Shown here: piece by piece, positions 9,696 to 53,164 of the stretch | Layout of the letters: each line of letters begins with the position of its first letter | Numbering within the stretch: position 1 is the first letter of the stretch | Origin: an uncultured Enterobacteriaceae bacterium | Lineage (GTDB): Bacteria > Pseudomonadota > Gammaproteobacteria > Burkholderiales > SG8-39 | NCBI GenBank assembly: GCA_964430565.1 | Contig: CAYSFD010000051.1 | Location: forward strand, 29,989 to 93,988 | DNA: 64,000 nt | Reading direction: 5' to 3' | Notes under the pieces: generated by a model | Seen by the model: the letters and a program-made list of their open reading frames with translations, nothing else | The model's database searches: none | What the model was told of the DNA's origin: nothing | Made by a program: the position numbers and the translations under genes

Positions 9696-10646
9696 TTACG
9701 CCCTGACTGCCTGCTCCAACAGCCATTTACGAAATGCGGCGACGGCTGGGCGCTCGGCGATGACCTCCGGGCACACGAGGTAATACGCCGATTGCGGTTT
9801 CAGTTCCACCTTGAACGGCGCGCACAGCCGCCCCGACGCGATGTCGTGGTCGATCAGAGGTTTCAGGGCGAGCGCCACGCCCAGCTTCTGCGACGCCGCC
9901 TCGAGCGACAGGATGTTCGAGGAAAAATGCGGCCCGCGGCTGCCGTCGACGCGATCGGCGACCCCCGCGGCCTCGAGCCATTTCTGCCAGGCGCGGCCGT
10001 GGGCCACGAGGTCCATGGCGTCGTCGTGCAGGAGCACGTGGCGCGCCAAGTCGGCCGGCTGTTCGAGCGGCGGATCGCCTCGCACCAGCTCGGGGCTGGC
10101 CACCGCGACGGTCGCGACGTCGAACAGGTGATCGGCGCGATAGCCGGGATAGGTTCCGCCGCCGAGATGGATTTCGACGCCGGACATCTCGTCCCTCAAA
10201 TCGAGATTTCCGACGAGAACAGAGGAATCGAGCGCGCCGGCGTCGACCATCCTGCTCGAGCCGAAGACGCGCAACTCGACGTGCGGCTCGCGTTTCGAAA
10301 AATCGGCCAGGCGCGGCATCAGCCAGCGCGCGGTGAACACCGGCGGCGCGGTGATCAGCAGCTCGGTCTCTTCGCCGCGCTCGCGGATCGTCTCCACCGC
10401 GGCGGCGAGCGACTCGAAGCCTTCGCGCAGTTTCGGCAAGCAGGCGCGCGCCGCTTCCGTCAGCTGCACACCGCGTCCCGCGCGGCGGAACAGCTCGATA
10501 CCGAGATACTCCTCGAGGCTCTTGATCTGATGGCTGACGGCTGCCTGGGTGATCGACAGCTCGTTTGCCGCCTCCTTGAACGAGAGGTGGCGCGCGGCGG
10601 CTTCGAATACCCGCAGTGCATTCAGCGGGGGCAGGCGGTAAATCAT
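9696..10646 (-). CDS. LysR-family regulator, GcvA/AmpR-like
   Basis: LPPLNALRVFEAAARHLSFKEAANELSITQAAVSHQIKSLEE HTH; alternative TTG start at 10655. Confidence 0.93.
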   Translation of the reverse strand: MIYRLPPLNALRVFEAAARHLSFKEAANELSITQAAVSHQIKSLEEYLGIELFRRAGRGVQLTEAARACLPKLREGFESLAAAVETIRERGEETELLITAPPVFTARWLMPRLADFSKREPHVELRVFGSSRMVDAGALDSSVLVGNLDLRDEMSGVEIHLGGGTYPGYRADHLFDVATVAVASPELVRGDPPLEQPADLARHVLLHDDAMDLVAHGRAWQKWLEAAGVADRVDGSRGPHFSSNILSLEAASQKLGVALALKPLIDHDIASGRLCAPFKVELKPQSAYYLVCPEVIAERPAVAAFRKWLLEQAVRA

Positions 10647-10670
10647 CCGGGGCAATTAGTCACAAATGGG

Positions 10671-10758: not shown

Positions 10759-10935
10759 ATGAAATCCCGAACCAACTTGACCGTTTCCGAATTGTACGCG
10801 CTGGAAAGCGCCGCACGTTCGGCCCGCGCGCAGGAAGTCGCGCGCCTAATCCGCGCCGGCGTGGACGCATTGGGCCGGTTTGCCGGCCGTGCCTTGTCTG
10901 CGCTGGAGCATAGAAAGGAAATCAGCCATGCGTAA
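10759..10935 (+). CDS. Small helical protein (58 aa), RSP_7527-like, divergent from LysR
   Basis: AGGAG SD before ATG 10759; LYALESAARSARAQEVARLI pattern; family assignment is from memory only. Confidence 0.65.
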   Translation: MKSRTNLTVSELYALESAARSARAQEVARLIRAGVDALGRFAGRALSALEHRKEISHA

Positions 10936-11131
10936 CACATTGCGTACACCATTCTGGCGGGCGGCCTACCGATCGCTGCCGGACACCGTGCGGCGCCGCT
11001 ACCTCGGGCAAATCGAGCGTGCGGAACGCTGGGAACTCGCGCTCGATGCGGCGACCGAAGCCTTGTCGCGAGCGAAGGACGCACTGGCCAGGCTGTTTGA
11101 AGCGCCCACCAAGCCACGATCGGCACACTAA
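10928..11131 (+). CDS. Small hypothetical protein (67 aa)
   Basis: AAGGA SD; ATG overlaps the upstream stop (ATGCGTAA), consistent with translational coupling. Confidence 0.65.
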   Translation: MRNTLRTPFWRAAYRSLPDTVRRRYLGQIERAERWELALDAATEALSRAKDALARLFEAPTKPRSAH

Positions 11132-11139
11132 CCGTTTGC

Positions 11140-11251
11140 CTCGCCGTCCGCGTGACCTGAGGTCTCCTCCTCCTCCTCCTCCGGTCAATAGCGCGGGCGG
11201 CGAGCATCTAACGACGGAGATAGACCGCAGGGTCTGTCTCCGTTTTTTTTT
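11140..11251 (+). ncRNA. Candidate 3'-UTR sRNA: long hairpin with (UCC)6 anti-SD loop plus intrinsic terminator
   Basis: CTCGCCGTCCGCG (11140-52) pairs with CGCGGGCGGCGAG (11192-204); inner TGACC/GGTCA; TCC x6 at 11165-11182; terminator follows. Confidence 0.6.
11214..11251 (+). terminator. Rho-independent terminator
   Basis: ACGGAGATAGACC-GCAG-GGTCTGTCTCCGT stem (one G-U pair), ending in a T run at 11243-11251. Confidence 0.9.
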
Positions 11252-48678: not shown

Positions 48679-49482
48679 GTGAACGAGCCGGCTGATGGTT
48701 CTACAATTTCGACGCAGGGCTTGCTGAGGGTCGAGCTCGACGGGGACATCGCTCTGGTGTCCCTGAGTCGTCCGGCTAAACGCAACGCCTTGAACGACGC
48801 CCTCTTTTCCGGGATCGAGCGGTTCTTCTCCGACGTTCCGGCCGGGGTGCGCGCGGTCGTGTTGTACGGTGAAGGCGATCATTTCAGTGCGGGCCTTGAC
48901 CTTTCCGAGCTGAAGGGTCTGACCGCCGCCGAAGGGATGATGCACTCGATAGCCGGGCATCGCGCTTTCGACCGGGTCCAGTTCGGCTCGGTACCGGTAG
49001 TCGCGGTGTTGCACGGGGCGGTGGTAGGCGGCGGGCTGGAGCTTGCTTGCGCGGCGCACATTCGAGTCGCCGAAACCTCGGCGTTCTATGCGCTTCCCGA
49101 GGGCCAGCGGGGAATTTTCGTCGGCGGCGGCGGTTCGGTGCGCGTGCCCCGGACGATCGGCGCCGCGCGCATGACCGACATGATGCTGACAGGGAGGGCC
49201 TATTCCGCGGAGGAAGGTCAGGAGGTTGGGATTTCACACTATCTCGTCGGACCCGGCGAAGGGCGGCGCAAAGCCATCGAGCTGGCGAGATCGATAGCCA
49301 AGAATGCAGTGCTCACCAACTTCGCAGTGATGCACGCGCTTCCGCGGATTGCTGAAGCGGGGCAGGACCACGGCATGTTCATGGAGGCGCTGATATCGGG
49401 CATCGCGCAGGCGGATCCCGAAGCGAAGAAGCGCATGCAGAGCTTCCTGGACAAGAGTGCTCCGAAGTTGAGGGAAGACTGA
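48679..49482 (+). CDS. Crotonase/enoyl-CoA hydratase family protein
   Basis: LSRPAKRNAL, FSAGLDL, GGGLEL, LPEGQRG; GGAGGAG SD. Confidence 0.92.
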   Translation: MNEPADGSTISTQGLLRVELDGDIALVSLSRPAKRNALNDALFSGIERFFSDVPAGVRAVVLYGEGDHFSAGLDLSELKGLTAAEGMMHSIAGHRAFDRVQFGSVPVVAVLHGAVVGGGLELACAAHIRVAETSAFYALPEGQRGIFVGGGGSVRVPRTIGAARMTDMMLTGRAYSAEEGQEVGISHYLVGPGEGRRKAIELARSIAKNAVLTNFAVMHALPRIAEAGQDHGMFMEALISGIAQADPEAKKRMQSFLDKSAPKLRED

Positions 49483-51350
49483 TGTCGGGCTCCGCTCCGC
49501 TCAGGCGGACGCGTTTCGGGCCGATCGGCGTAGATGTTTCGAGGTCCTTAGGCGATGTGACCTACCTCCGATCGCCCTATCCCCTTGGGGTCTACCCGAG
49601 GACCCTCACCGAGCGGCTCCTGCACTGGGCGCGCCTCGTACCCGATCGCACCTGTATAGCCGGCCGTGACCGAGCAGGTCATTGGAGGGTGCTTGACTAC
49701 GCCGCGAGCCTGCGGCACGTGCGCTCGATCGGGCAGGCGCTCCTGGACAGAAAGCTGTCCGAGAATCGGCCGGTCGTGATCCTCTCGGAGAACGATGTCG
49801 AGCACGGATTGCTTGCGCTTGCGGCAATGCATGTGGGGGTGCTCTTCGCGCCGGTATCGCCGGCCTATTCGCTCGTGTCCTCCGATTTCAGCCGGCTGCG
49901 GCATATCCTCTCGCTGCTCAAGCCGGGACTGGTATTTGCTGCAGACGGGCGCCGCTATGCTCGCGCGATCGCGGCGACCGTCCCGGCCGACGTGGAACTG
50001 ATTGTAGCTGGGGAGGCACCCGAAGGGCGTCGCGCGACGCCTTTCGCCACGCTGGAACGGACCGAAGCGACCGAGGCGGTGGAGCGAGCCTACGAGAATG
50101 TCGGGCCCGATACGGTTGCGAAAATCCTCTTCACCTCCGGCTCCACGTCCCACCCGAAGGGTGTAATCAACACACAGCGGATGCTCTGCAGCAACCAGCA
50201 GATGATCCTGCAGACGCTGGCGTTTCTCGGAGACACCCCGCCCGTGCTGCTCGACTGGTCGCCGTGGCACCACACGGCGGGCGGAAACCACAACTTCGGA
50301 CTGGTCATCTACAACGGCGGCTCGCTTTACATCGACGACGGTAAGCCGGGCCTCGGCGAGATCGACAAGACCGTGCGCAACCTGCGGGAAATCGCGCCGA
50401 CCTTCTATTTCAACGTTCCCAAGGGCTATGAGGACCTCATTCCCTATCTGCGGCGTGAGCCTGCGCTGCGGCAGAAGTTTTTCAGTCGGCTCTCGATGCT
50501 GCTCTATGCGGGCGCAGGCATGTCCCAAAATGTGTGGGACGCGCTCGAGGAGCTTGCGGCGGAAACCTGCGGCGAGCGCGTTCCCCTGATCACGGCACTC
50601 GGTTCGACCGAAACGGCGCCGTTCGCGCTGTGCGGCAACTGGGATACCGGCGGTCGCGCCGGCGTCATCGGCCTTCCCGCGCCGGGTTTGGAAGCGAAGC
50701 TCGTCCCGAACGGTGAGAAGATCGAGATCCGAGTACGTGGCCCCAATATCACGCCGGGTTACCTGCACGAGGAAGCGCTCACTCGGGAGGCGTTCGACGA
50801 AGAGGGCTACTATCGCATGGGTGACGCGGTGAAATTCGTCGAGTCGGCGGACCCGAAGAAGGGGTTGCTCTTCGACGGTCGCATCGCGGAGGATTTCAAG
50901 CTTTCGACGGGTACCTGGGTCAACGTTGGGGCGCTTAGGGCAAAAGTGATCCTCGAGGGCGCGCCTTATGTGCGGGACGTGGTAATCGCGGGACACGACC
51001 GGGACTGCATCGCCGTGCTCGTCTTTCCCAATCTAGCGGCCTGCCGGGAGTTTTGCAGCGGCGCGCCGGATTCCGAAGTCTTTGGCAACAGATTCGTGCG
51101 CGCGTGTTTCGAGACCCTGCTGAAGCGTTTGGTCGCAGACAGCACCGGCAGCTCCAACCGGGTCGCTCGAATGATCCTGCTCGAAGCGCCGCCGTCGATC
51201 GATGCGCACGAAATCACCGATAAGGGCTCGATCAACCAGAGCGCGGTCCTAAAAAACCGGGCGGATCTCGTCGAAGAACTTTACCGCAGGCCGCTTTCGC
51301 CCAAGGTCATCGCGGTGGGCGCAGAGGGAGGGACGCGCGCCGCAGCCTAG
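49482..51350 (+). CDS. fcs: Feruloyl-CoA synthase-like acyl-CoA ligase
   Basis: LFTSGSTSHPKG, PWHHTAGGNHN, GSTETAP, RGPNITPGY, FDGRIAEDFKL, ITDKGSINQ. Confidence 0.88.
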   Translation: MSGSAPLRRTRFGPIGVDVSRSLGDVTYLRSPYPLGVYPRTLTERLLHWARLVPDRTCIAGRDRAGHWRVLDYAASLRHVRSIGQALLDRKLSENRPVVILSENDVEHGLLALAAMHVGVLFAPVSPAYSLVSSDFSRLRHILSLLKPGLVFAADGRRYARAIAATVPADVELIVAGEAPEGRRATPFATLERTEATEAVERAYENVGPDTVAKILFTSGSTSHPKGVINTQRMLCSNQQMILQTLAFLGDTPPVLLDWSPWHHTAGGNHNFGLVIYNGGSLYIDDGKPGLGEIDKTVRNLREIAPTFYFNVPKGYEDLIPYLRREPALRQKFFSRLSMLLYAGAGMSQNVWDALEELAAETCGERVPLITALGSTETAPFALCGNWDTGGRAGVIGLPAPGLEAKLVPNGEKIEIRVRGPNITPGYLHEEALTREAFDEEGYYRMGDAVKFVESADPKKGLLFDGRIAEDFKLSTGTWVNVGALRAKVILEGAPYVRDVVIAGHDRDCIAVLVFPNLAACREFCSGAPDSEVFGNRFVRACFETLLKRLVADSTGSSNRVARMILLEAPPSIDAHEITDKGSINQSAVLKNRADLVEELYRRPLSPKVIAVGAEGGTRAAA

Positions 51351-51386
51351 CCGGACAGGGCTTTTGTTTCTTTGCAGACGACAAAC

Positions 51387-51414
51387 AAAAAGCCCTGGCT
51401 TGCGCCAGGGCTTT
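51387..51414 (-). terminator. Rho-independent terminator (phasin transcript; possibly bidirectional)
   Basis: AAAGCCCTGGC-GCAA-GCCAGGGCTTT with a GNRA loop on the minus strand, followed by T-rich sequence. Confidence 0.9.
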
Positions 51415-51454
51415 AGGGCGCCCCACAGAGAGGAGGAGGAGGACTGTGGGGCGC
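51387..51454 (-). ncRNA. Candidate 3'-UTR sRNA: 11-bp stem with UCCUCCUCCUCCUCU loop plus terminator
   Basis: GCGCCCCACAG (51418-28) pairs with CTGTGGGGCGC (51444-54); 15-nt loop; starts 17 nt after the phasin stop. Confidence 0.6.
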
Positions 51455-51470
51455 GGTAAAACTTGCGAAT

Positions 51471-52019
51471 CTAGGCTGTCGCGCGCTGCTTCCGGTGGGT
51501 TTCCTTTGCGGCCGTGGTCGCTGCGGCGAAATTCGCCTCGGCGATCTCGGCGGCTTGTTTCGCCACCTTGCTGAAGCTTTCGTAGGCGGAGTTGGTCGCG
51601 GCGAGTGCGGACTTCACGGCAGCGACTGCGGTCTCGGACCCGGCGGGGGCGTTTTTCGAGACGTTGTCGATAAGTCCGGCCAGGTTCTTGTTAAACTCGG
51701 CCACTCGCGCTTCGAAAAACTTCGCCAGCTCGCCCTGCGCTTGAGATGCAACCTCATATACGCTGCGTGAGTAGGCAATGGCCTTTTCGATCGCCGGCTG
51801 GGCAGTTGCTGCGGTCAAATTGACGTATTCCTGGGCGTCTCTGGCGCCGAGCAGCGCCTTGGCGTGACCGGTGCCCTCTTCATAGGCGGTCTTGGTCGCA
51901 CTGACGTTCAGTGTGGACAGGCGTTCGAAAGCGGCAAGTTGGGAACTTGCGAGACCTAGAATGGCCTCGACGCCGGCCTTGTTCGCGGTGGCGATTTGTT
52001 CGGGTGTAATAGAGTTCAT
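51471..52019 (-). CDS. phaP: Phasin (PHA granule-associated protein)
   Basis: TPEQIATANKAGVE, AIEKAIAYSRSVYE, KNAPAGSETAVAAVKSALAA; GGAG SD. Confidence 0.92.
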   Translation of the reverse strand: MNSITPEQIATANKAGVEAILGLASSQLAAFERLSTLNVSATKTAYEEGTGHAKALLGARDAQEYVNLTAATAQPAIEKAIAYSRSVYEVASQAQGELAKFFEARVAEFNKNLAGLIDNVSKNAPAGSETAVAAVKSALAATNSAYESFSKVAKQAAEIAEANFAAATTAAKETHRKQRATA

Positions 52020-52052
52020 GGTCATCTCCGTAAGAACGGGGTTGGAAAAATA

Positions 52053-52121
52053 TTGCACTGCAACAAACACGAATTCTACAGGTGAAAATGATCGTGTCAA
52101 GAGAAATATGCTGCAATGCAA
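52053..52121. promoter_or_regulatory. Two TGC-N3-GCA boxes (TTGCACTGCAA 52053-63; CTGCAATGCAA 52111-21), PhaR-type operators
   Basis: Upstream of phasin; PhaR repressors are known to bind TGC-rich dyads at phaP promoters. Confidence 0.6.
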
Positions 52122-52261
52122 GATACCTGGTCCATCATTCGGAACAACTCCACATAAACAAAGACATATAGCTGAGCTGCTCCTCGCGCGTCTGCCCTGA
52201 AGTCAGTAGCACTAATGCGTAACCCATTGCTTTTACATATGACTCTTCTTTCCAACCAATC

Positions 52262-53164
52262 ATGAGCACGCGCCATGACGCGCTGCCGCCGTCGATCATC
52301 GTCCTGGTAGTCCTGCTTGCGCTGGGCTGGGGATCAAATTGGCCGCTGATGAAGGTCGTGATGACCGAAATGGCGCCCCTGCATTTCCGCGTTTTGTGTC
52401 TGATCGCCGGCGCCGCGGGCCTCTTCGCCATCGCACGTGCCAACCGGCTGCCGATCCGGGTCCCTCGTGGCCAATGGCCGCGGTTGATCGCGATCGCGGC
52501 ATTCAATGTGGCTGCCTGGAATGTCCTAGCGGTGTACGGCGTCACATTCATGGAATCGGGCCGCGCGGTGATTCTCGCGTATACCTTTCCGGTGTGGGGC
52601 GTGCTGCTCGGCGTCTGGTTCCTGCATGAGCCGCTGACCGGGAGGCGTCTCGCAGGAGTGGTTCTGGGTCTCCTCGGGATGCTGTTGCTCCTCGGCGAGG
52701 AGATGCGCGCCGTCGGGCGTTCGCCGACCGGGGCGCTGTTGCTCATCGCCTCGGCGATCAGCTGGGCAATCAGCACGGCCATCATGAAGCGCTGGCCGGT
52801 CGATCTGCCGACTACATCATTTACCGGTTGGCAGATGCTGCTTGCCCTCCTGCCGATTCTCTCTGGCGCGCTAATTTTCGAGAAAGGGAGCTTTTCGCCG
52901 TTTGAGCTATCAACCTTGCCCTTGCTGGGGTTGATCTATAACGCGATCGTCAGTTCGATCTTCTGCAACTGGGCCTGGATCAAGATCGCGACTCACGCGC
53001 CGATCAGTGTCTCCTCTCTCTCCACGCTGATGATTCCGATCGTGGGCGTGTTCAGCGGCATGTTCGTGCTCGGCGAGCGCCCGCAGTGGAGCGATTTCGC
53101 CGCGCTCCTCCTTGTCGTCGCGGCGGTCGCGGTCGTCCTCATGCCGCAGCGCAGGACGGCCTGA
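52262..53164 (+). CDS. EamA/DMT family transporter
   Basis: Ten TM helices; WGSNWPLMK, LAYTFPVW, LMIPIVGVFSGMFVLGE. Confidence 0.92.
   Translation: MSTRHDALPPSIIVLVVLLALGWGSNWPLMKVVMTEMAPLHFRVLCLIAGAAGLFAIARANRLPIRVPRGQWPRLIAIAAFNVAAWNVLAVYGVTFMESGRAVILAYTFPVWGVLLGVWFLHEPLTGRRLAGVVLGLLGMLLLLGEEMRAVGRSPTGALLLIASAISWAISTAIMKRWPVDLPTTSFTGWQMLLALLPILSGALIFEKGSFSPFELSTLPLLGLIYNAIVSSIFCNWAWIKIATHAPISVSSLSTLMIPIVGVFSGMFVLGERPQWSDFAALLLVVAAVAVVLMPQRRTA

What the first reader, a model, noticed from the sequence alone, without database searches (positions are those of the whole stretch)
51387..51454. Second anti-SD loop element, in the phasin 3' UTR, with the same architecture as 11140-11251
Seen: stop codon, then a perfect 11-bp stem with loop UCCUCCUCCUCCUCU, then a GNRA-loop terminator. 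The stems share no sequence with the first element, but the loop motif and layout are the same. Inference: a family of 3'-UTR-derived anti-SD sRNAs. This copy would be co-induced with phasin, linking PHA carbon storage (PhaR control) to broad translational dampening. I know of no description of a phaP 3'-UTR sRNA, but could not check.
Basis: partly seen in the sequence, partly recalled or inferred. Interest (0 to 1): 0.75.

Follow-up and report, generated by a model that had tools for sequence, protein, structure and literature searches.

The report
Conserved anti-SD hairpin behind phasin gene
The tail of the messenger RNA for a carbon-storage granule protein (phasin) carries a strongly conserved 73-base double hairpin whose open loop copies the ribosome's own mRNA-docking sequence, so it is probably a small regulatory RNA tying translation to carbon storage; this kind of RNA is known, but not at this location.

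Summary
After the phasin stop codon (51473-51471) come a 16-nt spacer, a perfect 11-bp hairpin with the loop UCCUCCUCCUCCUCU (51454-51418), the spacer CCUAAA, and a GCAA-loop intrinsic terminator with tail UUUUUGUUUG (51411-51382).

It is not chance. All 15 orthologous phasin loci recovered carry the same 73-nt module. It stays 90-100% identical where third codon positions fall to 51-69% and the flanks to 44-62%. Two stem pairs show compensatory changes. The module follows phaP, not the downstream gene.

A CUCCUCC-type motif lies within 120 nt after the phasin stop in 37 of 127 betaproteobacterial loci. It never occurs antisense there, and the background is 1.5%. It appears in three clade-specific layouts and is predicted wholly or mostly unpaired in the hairpin-loop layouts, less so in the Rhodocyclales-type.

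No Rfam family reaches its threshold. The window element scores 18 bits on RF02278 (threshold 50); Rhodocyclales-type versions score 29-45.

Best reading: a phaP-cotranscribed, probably 3'UTR-derived, anti-Shine-Dalgarno sRNA module. Processing, trans action and targets are inferred only. I found no published phaP 3'UTR RNA.

The element at 11140-11251 is independently conserved but not a sequence homologue.

Verdict: new variant of a known kind, moderately high interest.

The parts
52073..52100 (-). phaP promoter TTGACA-16-TAGAAT (11 of 12 matches)
   Evidence: It is the only promoter-like site in 51300-52300, and none lies near the 3' end of the CDS.
52053..52120 (-). Two TGCA-N-TGCA dyads bracketing the promoter (TGCATTGCA 52120-52112; TTGCAGTGCAA 52063-52053); candidate repressor (PhaR-type) operators
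   Evidence: Sequence. The downstream dyad is conserved in close orthologues. The assignment to PhaR is inference from PMC11332829 and general knowledge, and was not tested.
51471..52019 (-). phaP (phasin) coding sequence, 182 aa, SD GGAGA 6 nt upstream of the ATG at 52019
   Evidence: Pfam Phasin_2 5.7e-25 and TIGR01841; 1618 homologues at E<=1e-10.
51455..51470 (-). Variable U/pyrimidine-rich single-stranded spacer (AUUCGCAAGUUUUACC); candidate endonucleolytic processing site
   Evidence: Variable between orthologues at 44-81% identity. It resembles RNase E sites mapped at CcsR 5' ends (PMC8034643). Processing is inferred, not shown.
51418..51454 (-). Hairpin 1: 11-bp stem with the 15-nt anti-Shine-Dalgarno loop UCCUCCUCCUCCUCU (51443-51429)
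   Evidence: Compensatory changes occur at two stem pairs (AU/CG/GC and GC/AU) across 11 distinct orthologous sequences. The loop core CCUCCUCCUCC is invariant.
51412..51417 (-). Inter-hairpin spacer CCUAAA, near-invariant
51382..51411 (-). Intrinsic terminator GCCCUGGC-GCAA-GCCAGGGC plus UUUUUGUUUG; the stem is invariant and the tetraloop varies only within GNRA (GCAA/GAAA/GUAA)
11140..11251 (+). Companion element of the same kind (not a homologue): long stem 11140-11152/11192-11204, inner stem 11153-11157/11183-11187, CU run UCUCCUCCUCCUCCUCCUCC at 11163-11182, terminator 11213-11244 plus U tract. It follows the small ORFs 10759-10935 and 10928-11131.
   Evidence: (16.2 bits on model R1). 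It is conserved after orthologues of the 67-aa ORF in 4 of 5 lineages sampled.

Best explanation
The last 73 nt of the phaP (phasin) transcript form a conserved regulatory RNA module.

Shown:
- phaP has one strong sigma-70 promoter.
- The transcript ends at an intrinsic terminator.
- Just upstream of that terminator, a very stable hairpin displays a fully unpaired 15-nt (UCC)4UCU loop. The loop contains four overlapping copies of CCUCC, the core of the 16S rRNA anti-Shine-Dalgarno sequence.
- The module is under stronger nucleotide-level selection than the phasin coding sequence.

Inferred:
- The module works by base pairing of its loop with GGAGG-type ribosome-binding sites. This blocks 30S binding on a set of mRNAs.
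- It most likely does so as a ~70-75-nt sRNA, released from the abundant phaP mRNA by endonucleolytic cleavage in the U-rich spacer after the stop codon. The 5' hairpin and the 3' terminator would protect it from exonucleases.
- Because phaP is transcribed when PHA granules titrate the repressor PhaR, the amount of the RNA would report carbon-storage state.
- By analogy with Burkholderia double-hairpin sRNAs and with MmgR, likely targets are carbon and amino-acid uptake or catabolism genes, and possibly PHA genes themselves.
For: - Anatomy and accessibility.
- Duplex energies: the loop pairs with GGAGG at -8.3, AAGGAGGUGA at -10.9 and AGGAGGAGGA at -18.5 kcal/mol.
- Conservation: all 15 orthologous loci carry the module.
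- Selection: module identity to the window is 90-100%. In the eight more distant orthologues, third codon positions are 51-69% identical, the spacer 44-62% and the downstream 60 nt 48-62%.
- Structure: RNAalifold independently predicts the same two helices. 98.5% of cells are paired, against 29-53% when the partners are slid, and two pairs carry compensatory changes.
- Linkage: the module stays with phaP where the convergent acyl-CoA synthetase gene is replaced by other genes.
- Motif enrichment: CTCCTCC|CCTCCTC lies within 120 nt after the phasin stop in 37 of 127 loci in sense and 0 of 127 in antisense, against a 1.5% background.
- Layouts: three clade-specific layouts exist. Predicted accessibility of the motif is near-complete in the hairpin-loop clade and mostly partial in the Rhodocyclales-type clade.
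- Independent lineage: a second clade has an unrelated stem around the same loop, 100% paired, with 3 compensatory pairs.
- Similarity to a known family: Rhodocyclales-type versions score 29-45 bits on RF02278 in 11 of 12 loci.
- Precedents: CU-rich double-hairpin sRNAs pair with RBS regions, and NcS27 overexpression slows growth (PMC5688073, PMC10987360). CcsR RNAs with CCUCCUCCC loops are cut from a 3' UTR by RNase E (PMC8034643).
Against: - There is no expression or processing data of any kind. The organism is an uncultured betaproteobacterium.
- No promoter-like site for an independent sRNA was found, so a separate RNA species depends entirely on unproven processing.
- The spacer where cleavage is proposed is not conserved in sequence.
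- A crude scan of translation-initiation regions in the window did not separate the real loop from composition-shuffled loops, so no target is supported.
- The covariation is modest: 2 pairs among 11 closely related sequences. The terminator helix never varies, so it says nothing about structure.
- The 127 loci are not phylogenetically independent, so the enrichment statistic overstates the number of independent events.
Confidence: 0.5

Rival explanations
1. The element acts in cis as an autoregulator. The anti-SD loop in the 3' UTR pairs with the Shine-Dalgarno region of the same phaP mRNA, as in the Staphylococcus aureus icaR 3'UTR-5'UTR interaction. This would limit phasin translation or trigger decay, so that phasin output matches granule surface.
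For: The motif sits on the same molecule as a GGAGA Shine-Dalgarno sequence. Every phasin examined has GGAG(A). No separate promoter is present. Rhodocyclales-type versions contain UCUCCU, fully complementary to their own AGGAGA. The icaR precedent is from my own knowledge. In Sinorhizobium, the anti-SD-type sRNA MmgR represses phasin synthesis post-transcriptionally (PMC8401924), so phasin translation is a known control point.
Against: In the window, pairing between the loop and its own initiation region is weak: -6.6 kcal/mol and 4-5 pairs, with no UCUCC in the loop. Pairing with GGAGG-type sites is -8 to -18 kcal/mol. Phasin SDs do not differ between loci with and without the motif, so there is no sign of 5'/3' co-evolution.
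Confidence: 0.2
2. The element is a protective or protein-binding 3' end. The double hairpin stabilises the very abundant phaP mRNA against 3' exonucleases or improves termination. The pyrimidine loop and the invariant terminator would be recognised by a protein (Hfq, a ProQ/FinO-type protein, S1 or another), with no role for base pairing to ribosome-binding sites.
For: Both hairpins are very stable (-44.9 kcal/mol for 75 nt). The terminator stem, the CCUAAA spacer and the U tail are invariant beyond what termination alone requires, which suggests sequence-specific recognition.
Against: Stability needs no particular loop sequence. Yet the CCUCCUCC core is invariant in clade A and recurs in unrelated structural settings in other clades: in a loop with a different stem, or single-stranded 5' of a hairpin. 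The motif is exactly the anti-SD core, and known RNAs with the same motif act by pairing with RBS regions (PMC5688073, PMC8034643).
Confidence: 0.15
3. The function lies on the opposite (+) strand. There the loop reads AGAGGAGGAGGAGGA, a GGA-rich or SD-like hairpin loop. It could act as a CsrA/RsmA-type binding site, a ribosome-binding decoy, or part of a bidirectional terminator for the convergent acyl-CoA synthetase gene.
For: The hairpins also fold on the + strand (-54.3 kcal/mol, z = -3.9). GGA motifs in hairpin loops are typical CsrA sites (my own knowledge).
Against: The U tract lies only on the phasin strand; the + strand has UUUAGGG after the hairpin. The element is kept where the convergent gene is replaced. 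The pyrimidine motif is in phasin sense in 37 of 127 loci and never antisense.
Confidence: 0.03

Closest known systems
Betaproteobacteria toxic small RNA / Burkholderia 'double-hairpin RNAs' (Rfam RF02278; ncS03, ncS05, ncS27, ncS62 of B. cenocepacia; PMC5688073, PMC10987360)
   Same: Same bacterial class. It is a ~57-92-nt RNA made almost entirely of two hairpins, the second an intrinsic terminator. CU-rich stretches sit in unpaired regions and are complementary to ribosome-binding sites. Phasin-3'UTR elements of the Rhodocyclales type align end to end with the model (UGUCUCCUCC, hairpin, AUUCA, terminator) at 29-45 bits.
   Different: The window element scores only 18.3 bits against a threshold of 50. 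It has one CU stretch, in the loop, rather than two. It lies inside an mRNA 3' UTR with no promoter of its own, whereas the Burkholderia RNAs have their own transcription start sites in intergenic regions. No link to phaP has been reported for them.
CcsR1-4 / 'cuckoo' RNAs of Alphaproteobacteria (PMC8034643, PMC4615179)
   Same: Anti-SD motif displayed in hairpin loops. They are co-transcribed with an upstream protein gene and released from its 3' UTR by RNase E at U-adjacent sites. The upstream gene's promoter sets their level.
   Different: A different class of bacteria. CcsR RNAs carry CCUCCUCCC in both loops, occur as tandem copies, and follow a DUF1127 gene. Here there is one loop motif, (UCC)4UCU, in a single copy after a phasin gene. 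No CcsR model hit was listed for the phaP element.
MmgR (alpha-r8 family; Rfam RF00519 'suhB') of Sinorhizobium meliloti (PMC8401924, PMC9049629)
   Same: A CU-rich (UUUCCUCCCU-type) sRNA tied to PHB metabolism. It is controlled by the PhaR orthologue AniA and by NtrC, and it represses phasin synthesis post-transcriptionally. This gives the same physiological logic: a PHA-status-linked anti-SD RNA.
   Different: MmgR is a free-standing gene in Alphaproteobacteria. The Rfam score here is only 21 bits against a threshold of 41. Here the RNA is physically part of the phasin mRNA.
NfeR1 / alpha-r14 (RF02344), BjrC68 (RF02353), anti-hemB/ncS04 (RF02837), ncS54 (RF02871)
   Same: Hairpin(s) with a ~15-nt CU-rich loop followed by a terminator. 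These are the best sub-threshold Rfam matches to the window element: 29, 26.8, 23.2 and 24.1 bits.
   Different: All are well below their thresholds (58.8, 39, 49.5, 43). The matches rest on the generic layout and the CU loop, not on family-specific sequence.
icaR 3'UTR anti-SD motif of Staphylococcus aureus (own knowledge)
   Same: A pyrimidine anti-SD motif located in the 3' UTR of an mRNA.
   Different: icaR acts in cis on its own Shine-Dalgarno sequence through extended complementarity. Here complementarity to the own SD is weak.

Membership tests
RF02278 Betaproteobacteria toxic small RNA / double-hairpin RNA | Covariance-model score at or above Rfam's gathering threshold (50 bits) | tested here: not met
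   The window element scores 18.3 bits, and the gathering scan of the whole window finds nothing. Rhodocyclales-type phaP elements score 28.7-44.8 bits in 11 of 12 loci, which is near but still below the threshold.
RF02278 Betaproteobacteria toxic small RNA / double-hairpin RNA | Short RNA consisting almost entirely of two hairpins, the second a rho-independent terminator | tested here: met
   with the terminator scan. The module is 73 nt.
RF02278 Betaproteobacteria toxic small RNA / double-hairpin RNA | [quoted passage not shown] | tested here: met
   One 15-nt stretch, with unpaired probability 1.0 and perfect complementarity to GGAGG. The family consensus has two stretches: a 5' single strand and the loop.
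RF02278 Betaproteobacteria toxic small RNA / double-hairpin RNA | Independently transcribed from its own start site in an intergenic region | tested here: inconclusive
   No sigma-70-like site was found in or near the 3' end of phaP, and the element starts 16 nt after the stop codon. Without RNA 5'-end data this cannot be settled.
RF02278 Betaproteobacteria toxic small RNA / double-hairpin RNA | Growth attenuation when overexpressed (toxicity in E. coli; the NcS27 phenotype) | not testable with these tools
   Requires an experiment.
CcsR / cuckoo RNA family | CCUCCUCCC motif in each of two hairpin loops | tested here: not met
   Only hairpin 1 carries a CU loop, (UCC)4UCU. It contains CCUCCUCC but not CCUCCUCCC. 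The second loop is GCAA.
CcsR / cuckoo RNA family | Tandem copies next to a DUF1127 gene | tested here: not met
   There is a single copy after a Phasin_2 gene.
CcsR / cuckoo RNA family | Released from a 3' (or 5') UTR by RNase E | not testable with these tools
   The location in a 3' UTR is shown. Cleavage is not.
3'UTR-derived sRNA (processed type) | Lies between the stop codon and the mRNA's own intrinsic terminator, sharing that terminator | tested here: met
3'UTR-derived sRNA (processed type) | 3'UTR segment, including the seed, conserved beyond neutral expectation | tested here: met
   Identity is 90-100%, against 51-69% at third codon positions and 44-62% in the flanks. The loop core is invariant.
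3'UTR-derived sRNA (processed type) | A stable short RNA species with a processed 5' end accumulates | not testable with these tools
   No transcriptome is available for this organism.
MmgR / alpha-r8 (RF00519) | Score at or above the gathering threshold (41 bits) | tested here: not met
   21 bits.
alpha-r14 / NfeR1 (RF02344) and BjrC68 (RF02353) | Score at or above the gathering threshold (58.8 and 39 bits) | tested here: not met
   29.0 and 26.8 bits.
icaR-type cis 3'UTR/5'UTR anti-SD pairing | Extended complementarity between the 3'UTR motif and the mRNA's own Shine-Dalgarno region | tested here: inconclusive
   The best duplex with the own initiation region is -6.6 kcal/mol with 4-5 pairs. 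The SD is GGAGA in loci with and without the motif. Weak intramolecular pairing cannot be excluded.

The most novel reading that the evidence does not exclude
phaP mRNA would be a dual-function transcript in many Betaproteobacteria. It encodes phasin, and its 3' end is released as an anti-Shine-Dalgarno sRNA whose level reports PHA-granule status through PhaR. This would couple carbon storage directly to translation of a regulon. The free-standing 'toxic/double-hairpin' sRNAs of Burkholderia (RF02278) and these phaP-3'UTR modules would then be one diverged family, one form having arisen from the other.
Probability: 0.3. Interest if true: 0.75.

Novelty: new variant of a known kind. Interest (0 to 1): 0.6.

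Why it matters
Phasin mRNA is among the most strongly induced transcripts when bacteria store carbon as PHA. A conserved anti-SD RNA built into its 3' end would give a direct post-transcriptional output of the PhaR/granule sensor, a layer missing from current reviews of PHA regulation (PMC8401924; PMC9049629 does not mention UTRs at all). It would add a metabolically meaningful example to the 3'UTR-derived sRNAs. It would extend the poorly understood CU-rich double-hairpin sRNAs of Betaproteobacteria to a defined regulatory input. It also has a practical side: phaP cassettes used in bioplastic strain engineering may or may not carry this module. The claim is directly testable, because some cultured or completely sequenced carriers exist, for example Sulfurisoma sediminicola BSN1 (L068) and Ca. 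Desulfobacillus denitrificans (L064).

Tried and rejected
1. Wrong-frame error. For the small ORF upstream of the companion element I first used 10929-11133, which is out of frame. The Pfam and NCBIfam results for that ORF, and the 'no homologue' result, are therefore void. The correct ORF is 10928-11131. It has 78 homologues.
2. Rfam membership. Scans at gathering thresholds of the window and of 20 motif-bearing loci found nothing. All E-value hits are sub-threshold, so membership in any Rfam family is rejected for the window element.
3. One family for both window elements. This is rejected: model R1 scores element 1 at 16.2 bits.
4. Target scan. A crude scan of about 68 guessed translation-initiation regions in the window with RNAduplex gave a median of -8.3 kcal/mol for the real loop and -8.2 for composition-shuffled loops. 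It is uninformative, and I draw no target from it.
5. Own-SD pairing and 5'/3' co-variation. Pairing is weak and does not discriminate.
6. Plasmid-borne phasin paralogues of Caballeronia, Ralstonia, Cupriavidus N-1 and Polaromonas lack the motif. The element therefore belongs to particular phasin clades, not to all phasins.
7. Independent promoter inside the phaP 3' end: none found.
8. Opposite-strand function: rejected on orientation statistics and the position of the U tract.
9. Literature searches for a phaP or phasin 3'UTR sRNA found nothing relevant. The original 'toxic small RNA' paper is not in the library.
10. An exact-protein look-up of the window phasin found only a 4-kb Logan contig, which is uninformative about the source organism.

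Full report
OBSERVATION. The finding's coordinates are right, but the feature reads on the minus strand. The ORF 52019-51471(-) is a phasin: Pfam Phasin_2 at 5.7e-25 and TIGR01841. After its UAG stop come a 16-nt spacer and then a perfect 11-bp stem, GCGCCCCACAG/CUGUGGGGCGC. The stem closes a 15-nt all-pyrimidine loop, UCCUCCUCCUCCUCU (51454-51418). Next are the spacer CCUAAA, the hairpin GCCCUGGC-GCAA-GCCAGGGC, and the tail UUUUUGUUUG (51411-51382). The fold is far more stable than shuffles (z = -5.4, 0 of 200). The terminator scan calls the second hairpin on the minus strand. The loop has an unpaired probability of 1.0 both alone and in a 260-nt mRNA context.

CONTEXT. phaP has a single strong promoter, TTGACA-16-TAGAAT (11 of 12 matches, 52100-52073), bracketed by two TGCA-N-TGCA dyads. 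No promoter-like site lies near the 3' end of the gene, so the element is made as part of the phaP transcript. The neighbour downstream is a convergent acyl-CoA synthetase gene (49482-51350). An EamA transporter gene lies divergently upstream. Homologues show that the organism is an uncultured soil-type betaproteobacterium of the Burkholderiales.

CONSERVATION IN ORTHOLOGUES.
- One scan of GTDB species genomes with a phasin alignment and one metagenome scan with the window's phasin gave 131 loci.
- The 15 orthologous loci are L001, L002, L020 and L081-L092, with phasin 68-92% identical to the window's. All 15 carry the same module.
- Conservation is sharply bounded. It starts at the base of hairpin 1 and ends with the U tail, and both flanks are variable.
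- In the eight more distant orthologues the module stays 90-96% identical. There the coding sequence is 72-80% identical, third codon positions 51-69%, the spacer 44-62% and the next 60 nt 48-62%.
- RNAalifold predicts the two helices without guidance.
- On 11 distinct sequences 98.5% of cells pair, against 29-53% when partners are slid. Two stem positions change on both sides: A-U/C-G/G-C, and G-C/A-U.
- The terminator stem never varies. Its tetraloop varies only as GCAA, GAAA or GUAA, all of which are GNRA loops.
- The convergent synthetase gene is present only in the seven closest loci. In the others the downstream gene differs, yet the module is retained. The upstream EamA gene confirms that these loci are orthologous.
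- The module therefore belongs to phaP.

WIDER DISTRIBUTION.
- CTCCTCC or CCTCCTC occurs within 120 nt after the phasin stop in 37 of 127 loci in phasin sense, and in 0 of 127 in antisense. The figure for other 120-nt windows of the same loci is 1.5%. The loci are related to one another, so this is not a count of independent events.
- The motif comes in three layouts that follow phasin clades.
- Layout A is the window type.
- Layout B is a hairpin with an unrelated stem (CGCUGACAGC) around a CUCCUCCUCC loop, followed by two more hairpins. Its stem is 100% paired, with three compensatory and three one-sided changes in seven sequences.
- Layout C is the Rhodocyclales type: a single-stranded (U)GUCUCCUCCUCC, then a small hairpin and a terminator.
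- Minimum-free-energy folds leave the motif fully or almost fully unpaired in nearly all loop-type loci (layout B, L016, L028, L095). In most layout-C loci it is partly unpaired, and it is largely paired in L063, L069 and L075.
- A clade lying between A and B has shorter CU-rich tracts. A large clade of soil MAGs, and the Thauera and Zoogloea types, lack the motif.
- Plasmid-borne phasin paralogues also lack it.

COMPARISON WITH KNOWN RNAs.
- No Rfam 15 family reaches its gathering score in the window or in 20 motif-bearing loci.
- Sub-threshold matches to the window element are ar14 at 29 bits (threshold 58.8), BjrC68 at 26.8 (39), ncS54 at 24.1 (43), anti-hemB at 23.2 (49.5), mmgR at 21 (41) and RF02278 at 18.3 (50). 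All reflect the generic layout of a CU loop followed by a terminator.
- Layout C differs. It aligns end to end with RF02278, the Betaproteobacteria toxic small RNA, at 28.7-44.8 bits in 11 of 12 loci. That is close to, but below, membership.
- In B. cenocepacia, RF02278 members (ncS03, ncS05, ncS27, ncS62) are 57-92-nt 'double-hairpin RNAs'. Their unpaired CU-rich stretches are complementary to ribosome-binding sites. NcS27 overexpression attenuates growth, and silencing its CU region has the opposite effect (PMC5688073, PMC10987360).
- In Rhodobacter, CcsR RNAs carry CCUCCUCCC loops and are cut by RNase E from the 3' UTR of a small-protein mRNA (PMC8034643).
- In Sinorhizobium, the CU-rich sRNA MmgR is controlled by the PhaR orthologue AniA and represses phasin synthesis (PMC8401924).
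- Two reviews of PHA regulation and my literature searches show no RNA element in a phaP 3' UTR.

MECHANISM. What is shown: the module is co-transcribed with phaP, it is strongly selected, and it exposes an invariant copy of the anti-SD core. What is inferred: the loop pairs with GGAGG-type ribosome-binding sites (-8 to -18 kcal/mol for model sites). I also infer that the module most likely acts after release as a ~73-nt RNA. The spacer just 5' of the hairpin is variable but follows a purine-then-U/pyrimidine pattern (AAG|UUUUACC, AAG|UCUCC, AGG|UUUC). This resembles RNase E sites mapped at CcsR 5' ends (PMC8034643). In Ralstonia, phaP is derepressed when PhaR binds nascent granules (PMC11332829), so the RNA's level would follow carbon-storage state. 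I give this reading 0.5.

RIVALS.
- Cis pairing with the mRNA's own SD, as in icaR, gets 0.2. Own-SD pairing in the window is weak (-6.6 kcal/mol), and SDs do not co-vary with the motif.
- A stabiliser or protein-binding 3' end gets 0.15. The invariance of the terminator and spacer argues for it. The recurrence of the same loop sequence in unrelated scaffolds argues against it.
- Function on the opposite strand is close to excluded.

THE 'FAMILY' CLAIM.
- The element at 11140-11251 has the same layout: a long stem, a 20-nt CU run, and a terminator, whose loop is GCAG rather than GNRA.
- It follows two overlapping small ORFs, 10759-10935 and 10928-11131, which lie divergent from a LysR gene.
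- The 67-aa ORF has 78 homologues.
- In four of five lineages sampled, the ORF is followed by the same hairpin with a CCUCCUCCUCC loop.
- The companion is therefore real and conserved. The phaP model scores it at only 16.2 bits.
- The two elements are members of one kind, not of one demonstrable sequence family.

CAVEATS. No transcript data exist for this organism. The covariation rests on closely related sequences. No targets are known, and my crude target scan was uninformative. One set of early calls used a wrong reading frame for the small ORF and is void (for that ORF).

VERDICT. This is a real, strongly conserved RNA module that is not in Rfam 15 and not described in the literature I could search. 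It is a new phaP-3'UTR variant of the known CU-rich anti-SD sRNA kind.

Noticed in passing
window 10759-11251 (+): Two overlapping small ORFs of 58 aa and 67 aa (ATGCGTAA overlap), without Pfam domains, lie divergent from a LysR gene (9696-10655, -) and are followed by the companion CU-loop hairpin and a terminator. The 67-aa protein has 78 homologues, and the hairpin is conserved after it in 4 of 5 lineages. The layout recalls ccaF1-ccsR: a small protein gene with an anti-SD RNA in its 3' UTR.
   Followed up: partly
window 51382-51417 (-), and L001, L002, L020, L081-L092: The terminator stem GCCCUGGC/GCCAGGGC, the spacer CCUAAA and the tail UUUUUGUUU are invariant or nearly so across 16 sequences, although synonymous sites are close to saturation. 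The tetraloop varies only within GNRA (GCAA/GAAA/GUAA). This is more constraint than termination needs. It may reflect protein recognition or a second pairing site.
   Followed up: partly
L056-L079 (Rhodocyclales-type loci), about 10-100 nt after the phasin stop: The phasin 3'UTR elements here align over the full length of RF02278 (toxic small RNA) at 29-45 bits, below the 50-bit threshold, in 11 of 12 loci. They may be unrecognised, phaP-linked relatives of that family.
   Followed up: partly
L068:3060-3126 (Sulfurisoma sediminicola BSN1): This phasin 3' UTR carries two anti-SD motifs. One, CUCCUCCUCCCC, lies before a small hairpin. The second, CCUCCUCCCC, lies in the loop of the terminator itself.
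   Followed up: no
L003, L007-L014, L017-L023 (motif-less soil-MAG clade), 3' UTR of phasin: Instead of a pyrimidine motif, these UTRs share a conserved GCGCCAAA...GATCTAGCGC segment and purine-rich AAGAAGAAG(U) tracts before the terminator. I do not know what these are; unannotated coding sequence for a lysine-rich tail in another frame was not excluded.
   Followed up: no
window 51356-51397 (+): After the stop of the convergent acyl-CoA synthetase gene, CAGGGCUUUUGUUU (51356-51369) is a near-perfect inverted repeat of AAACAAAAAGCCCUG (51383-51397). The latter is the U-tract and 3' arm of the phaP terminator read on the other strand. The two convergent 3' ends could therefore pair, or form an alternative long hairpin.
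   Followed up: no
L048:3338-3408: A near-perfect ~23-bp palindromic hairpin (CGCGUUUUCUGUACGGAU...AUCCGUACAGAAAACGCG) lies about 200 nt downstream of the phasin terminator. It produced a spurious mir-4520 match on both strands.
   Followed up: no
window 52053-52120 (-): Two TGCA-N-TGCA dyads flank the phaP promoter, and the downstream one is conserved in close orthologues. They are candidate PhaR-type operators. No phaR gene was looked for in the window.
   Followed up: no
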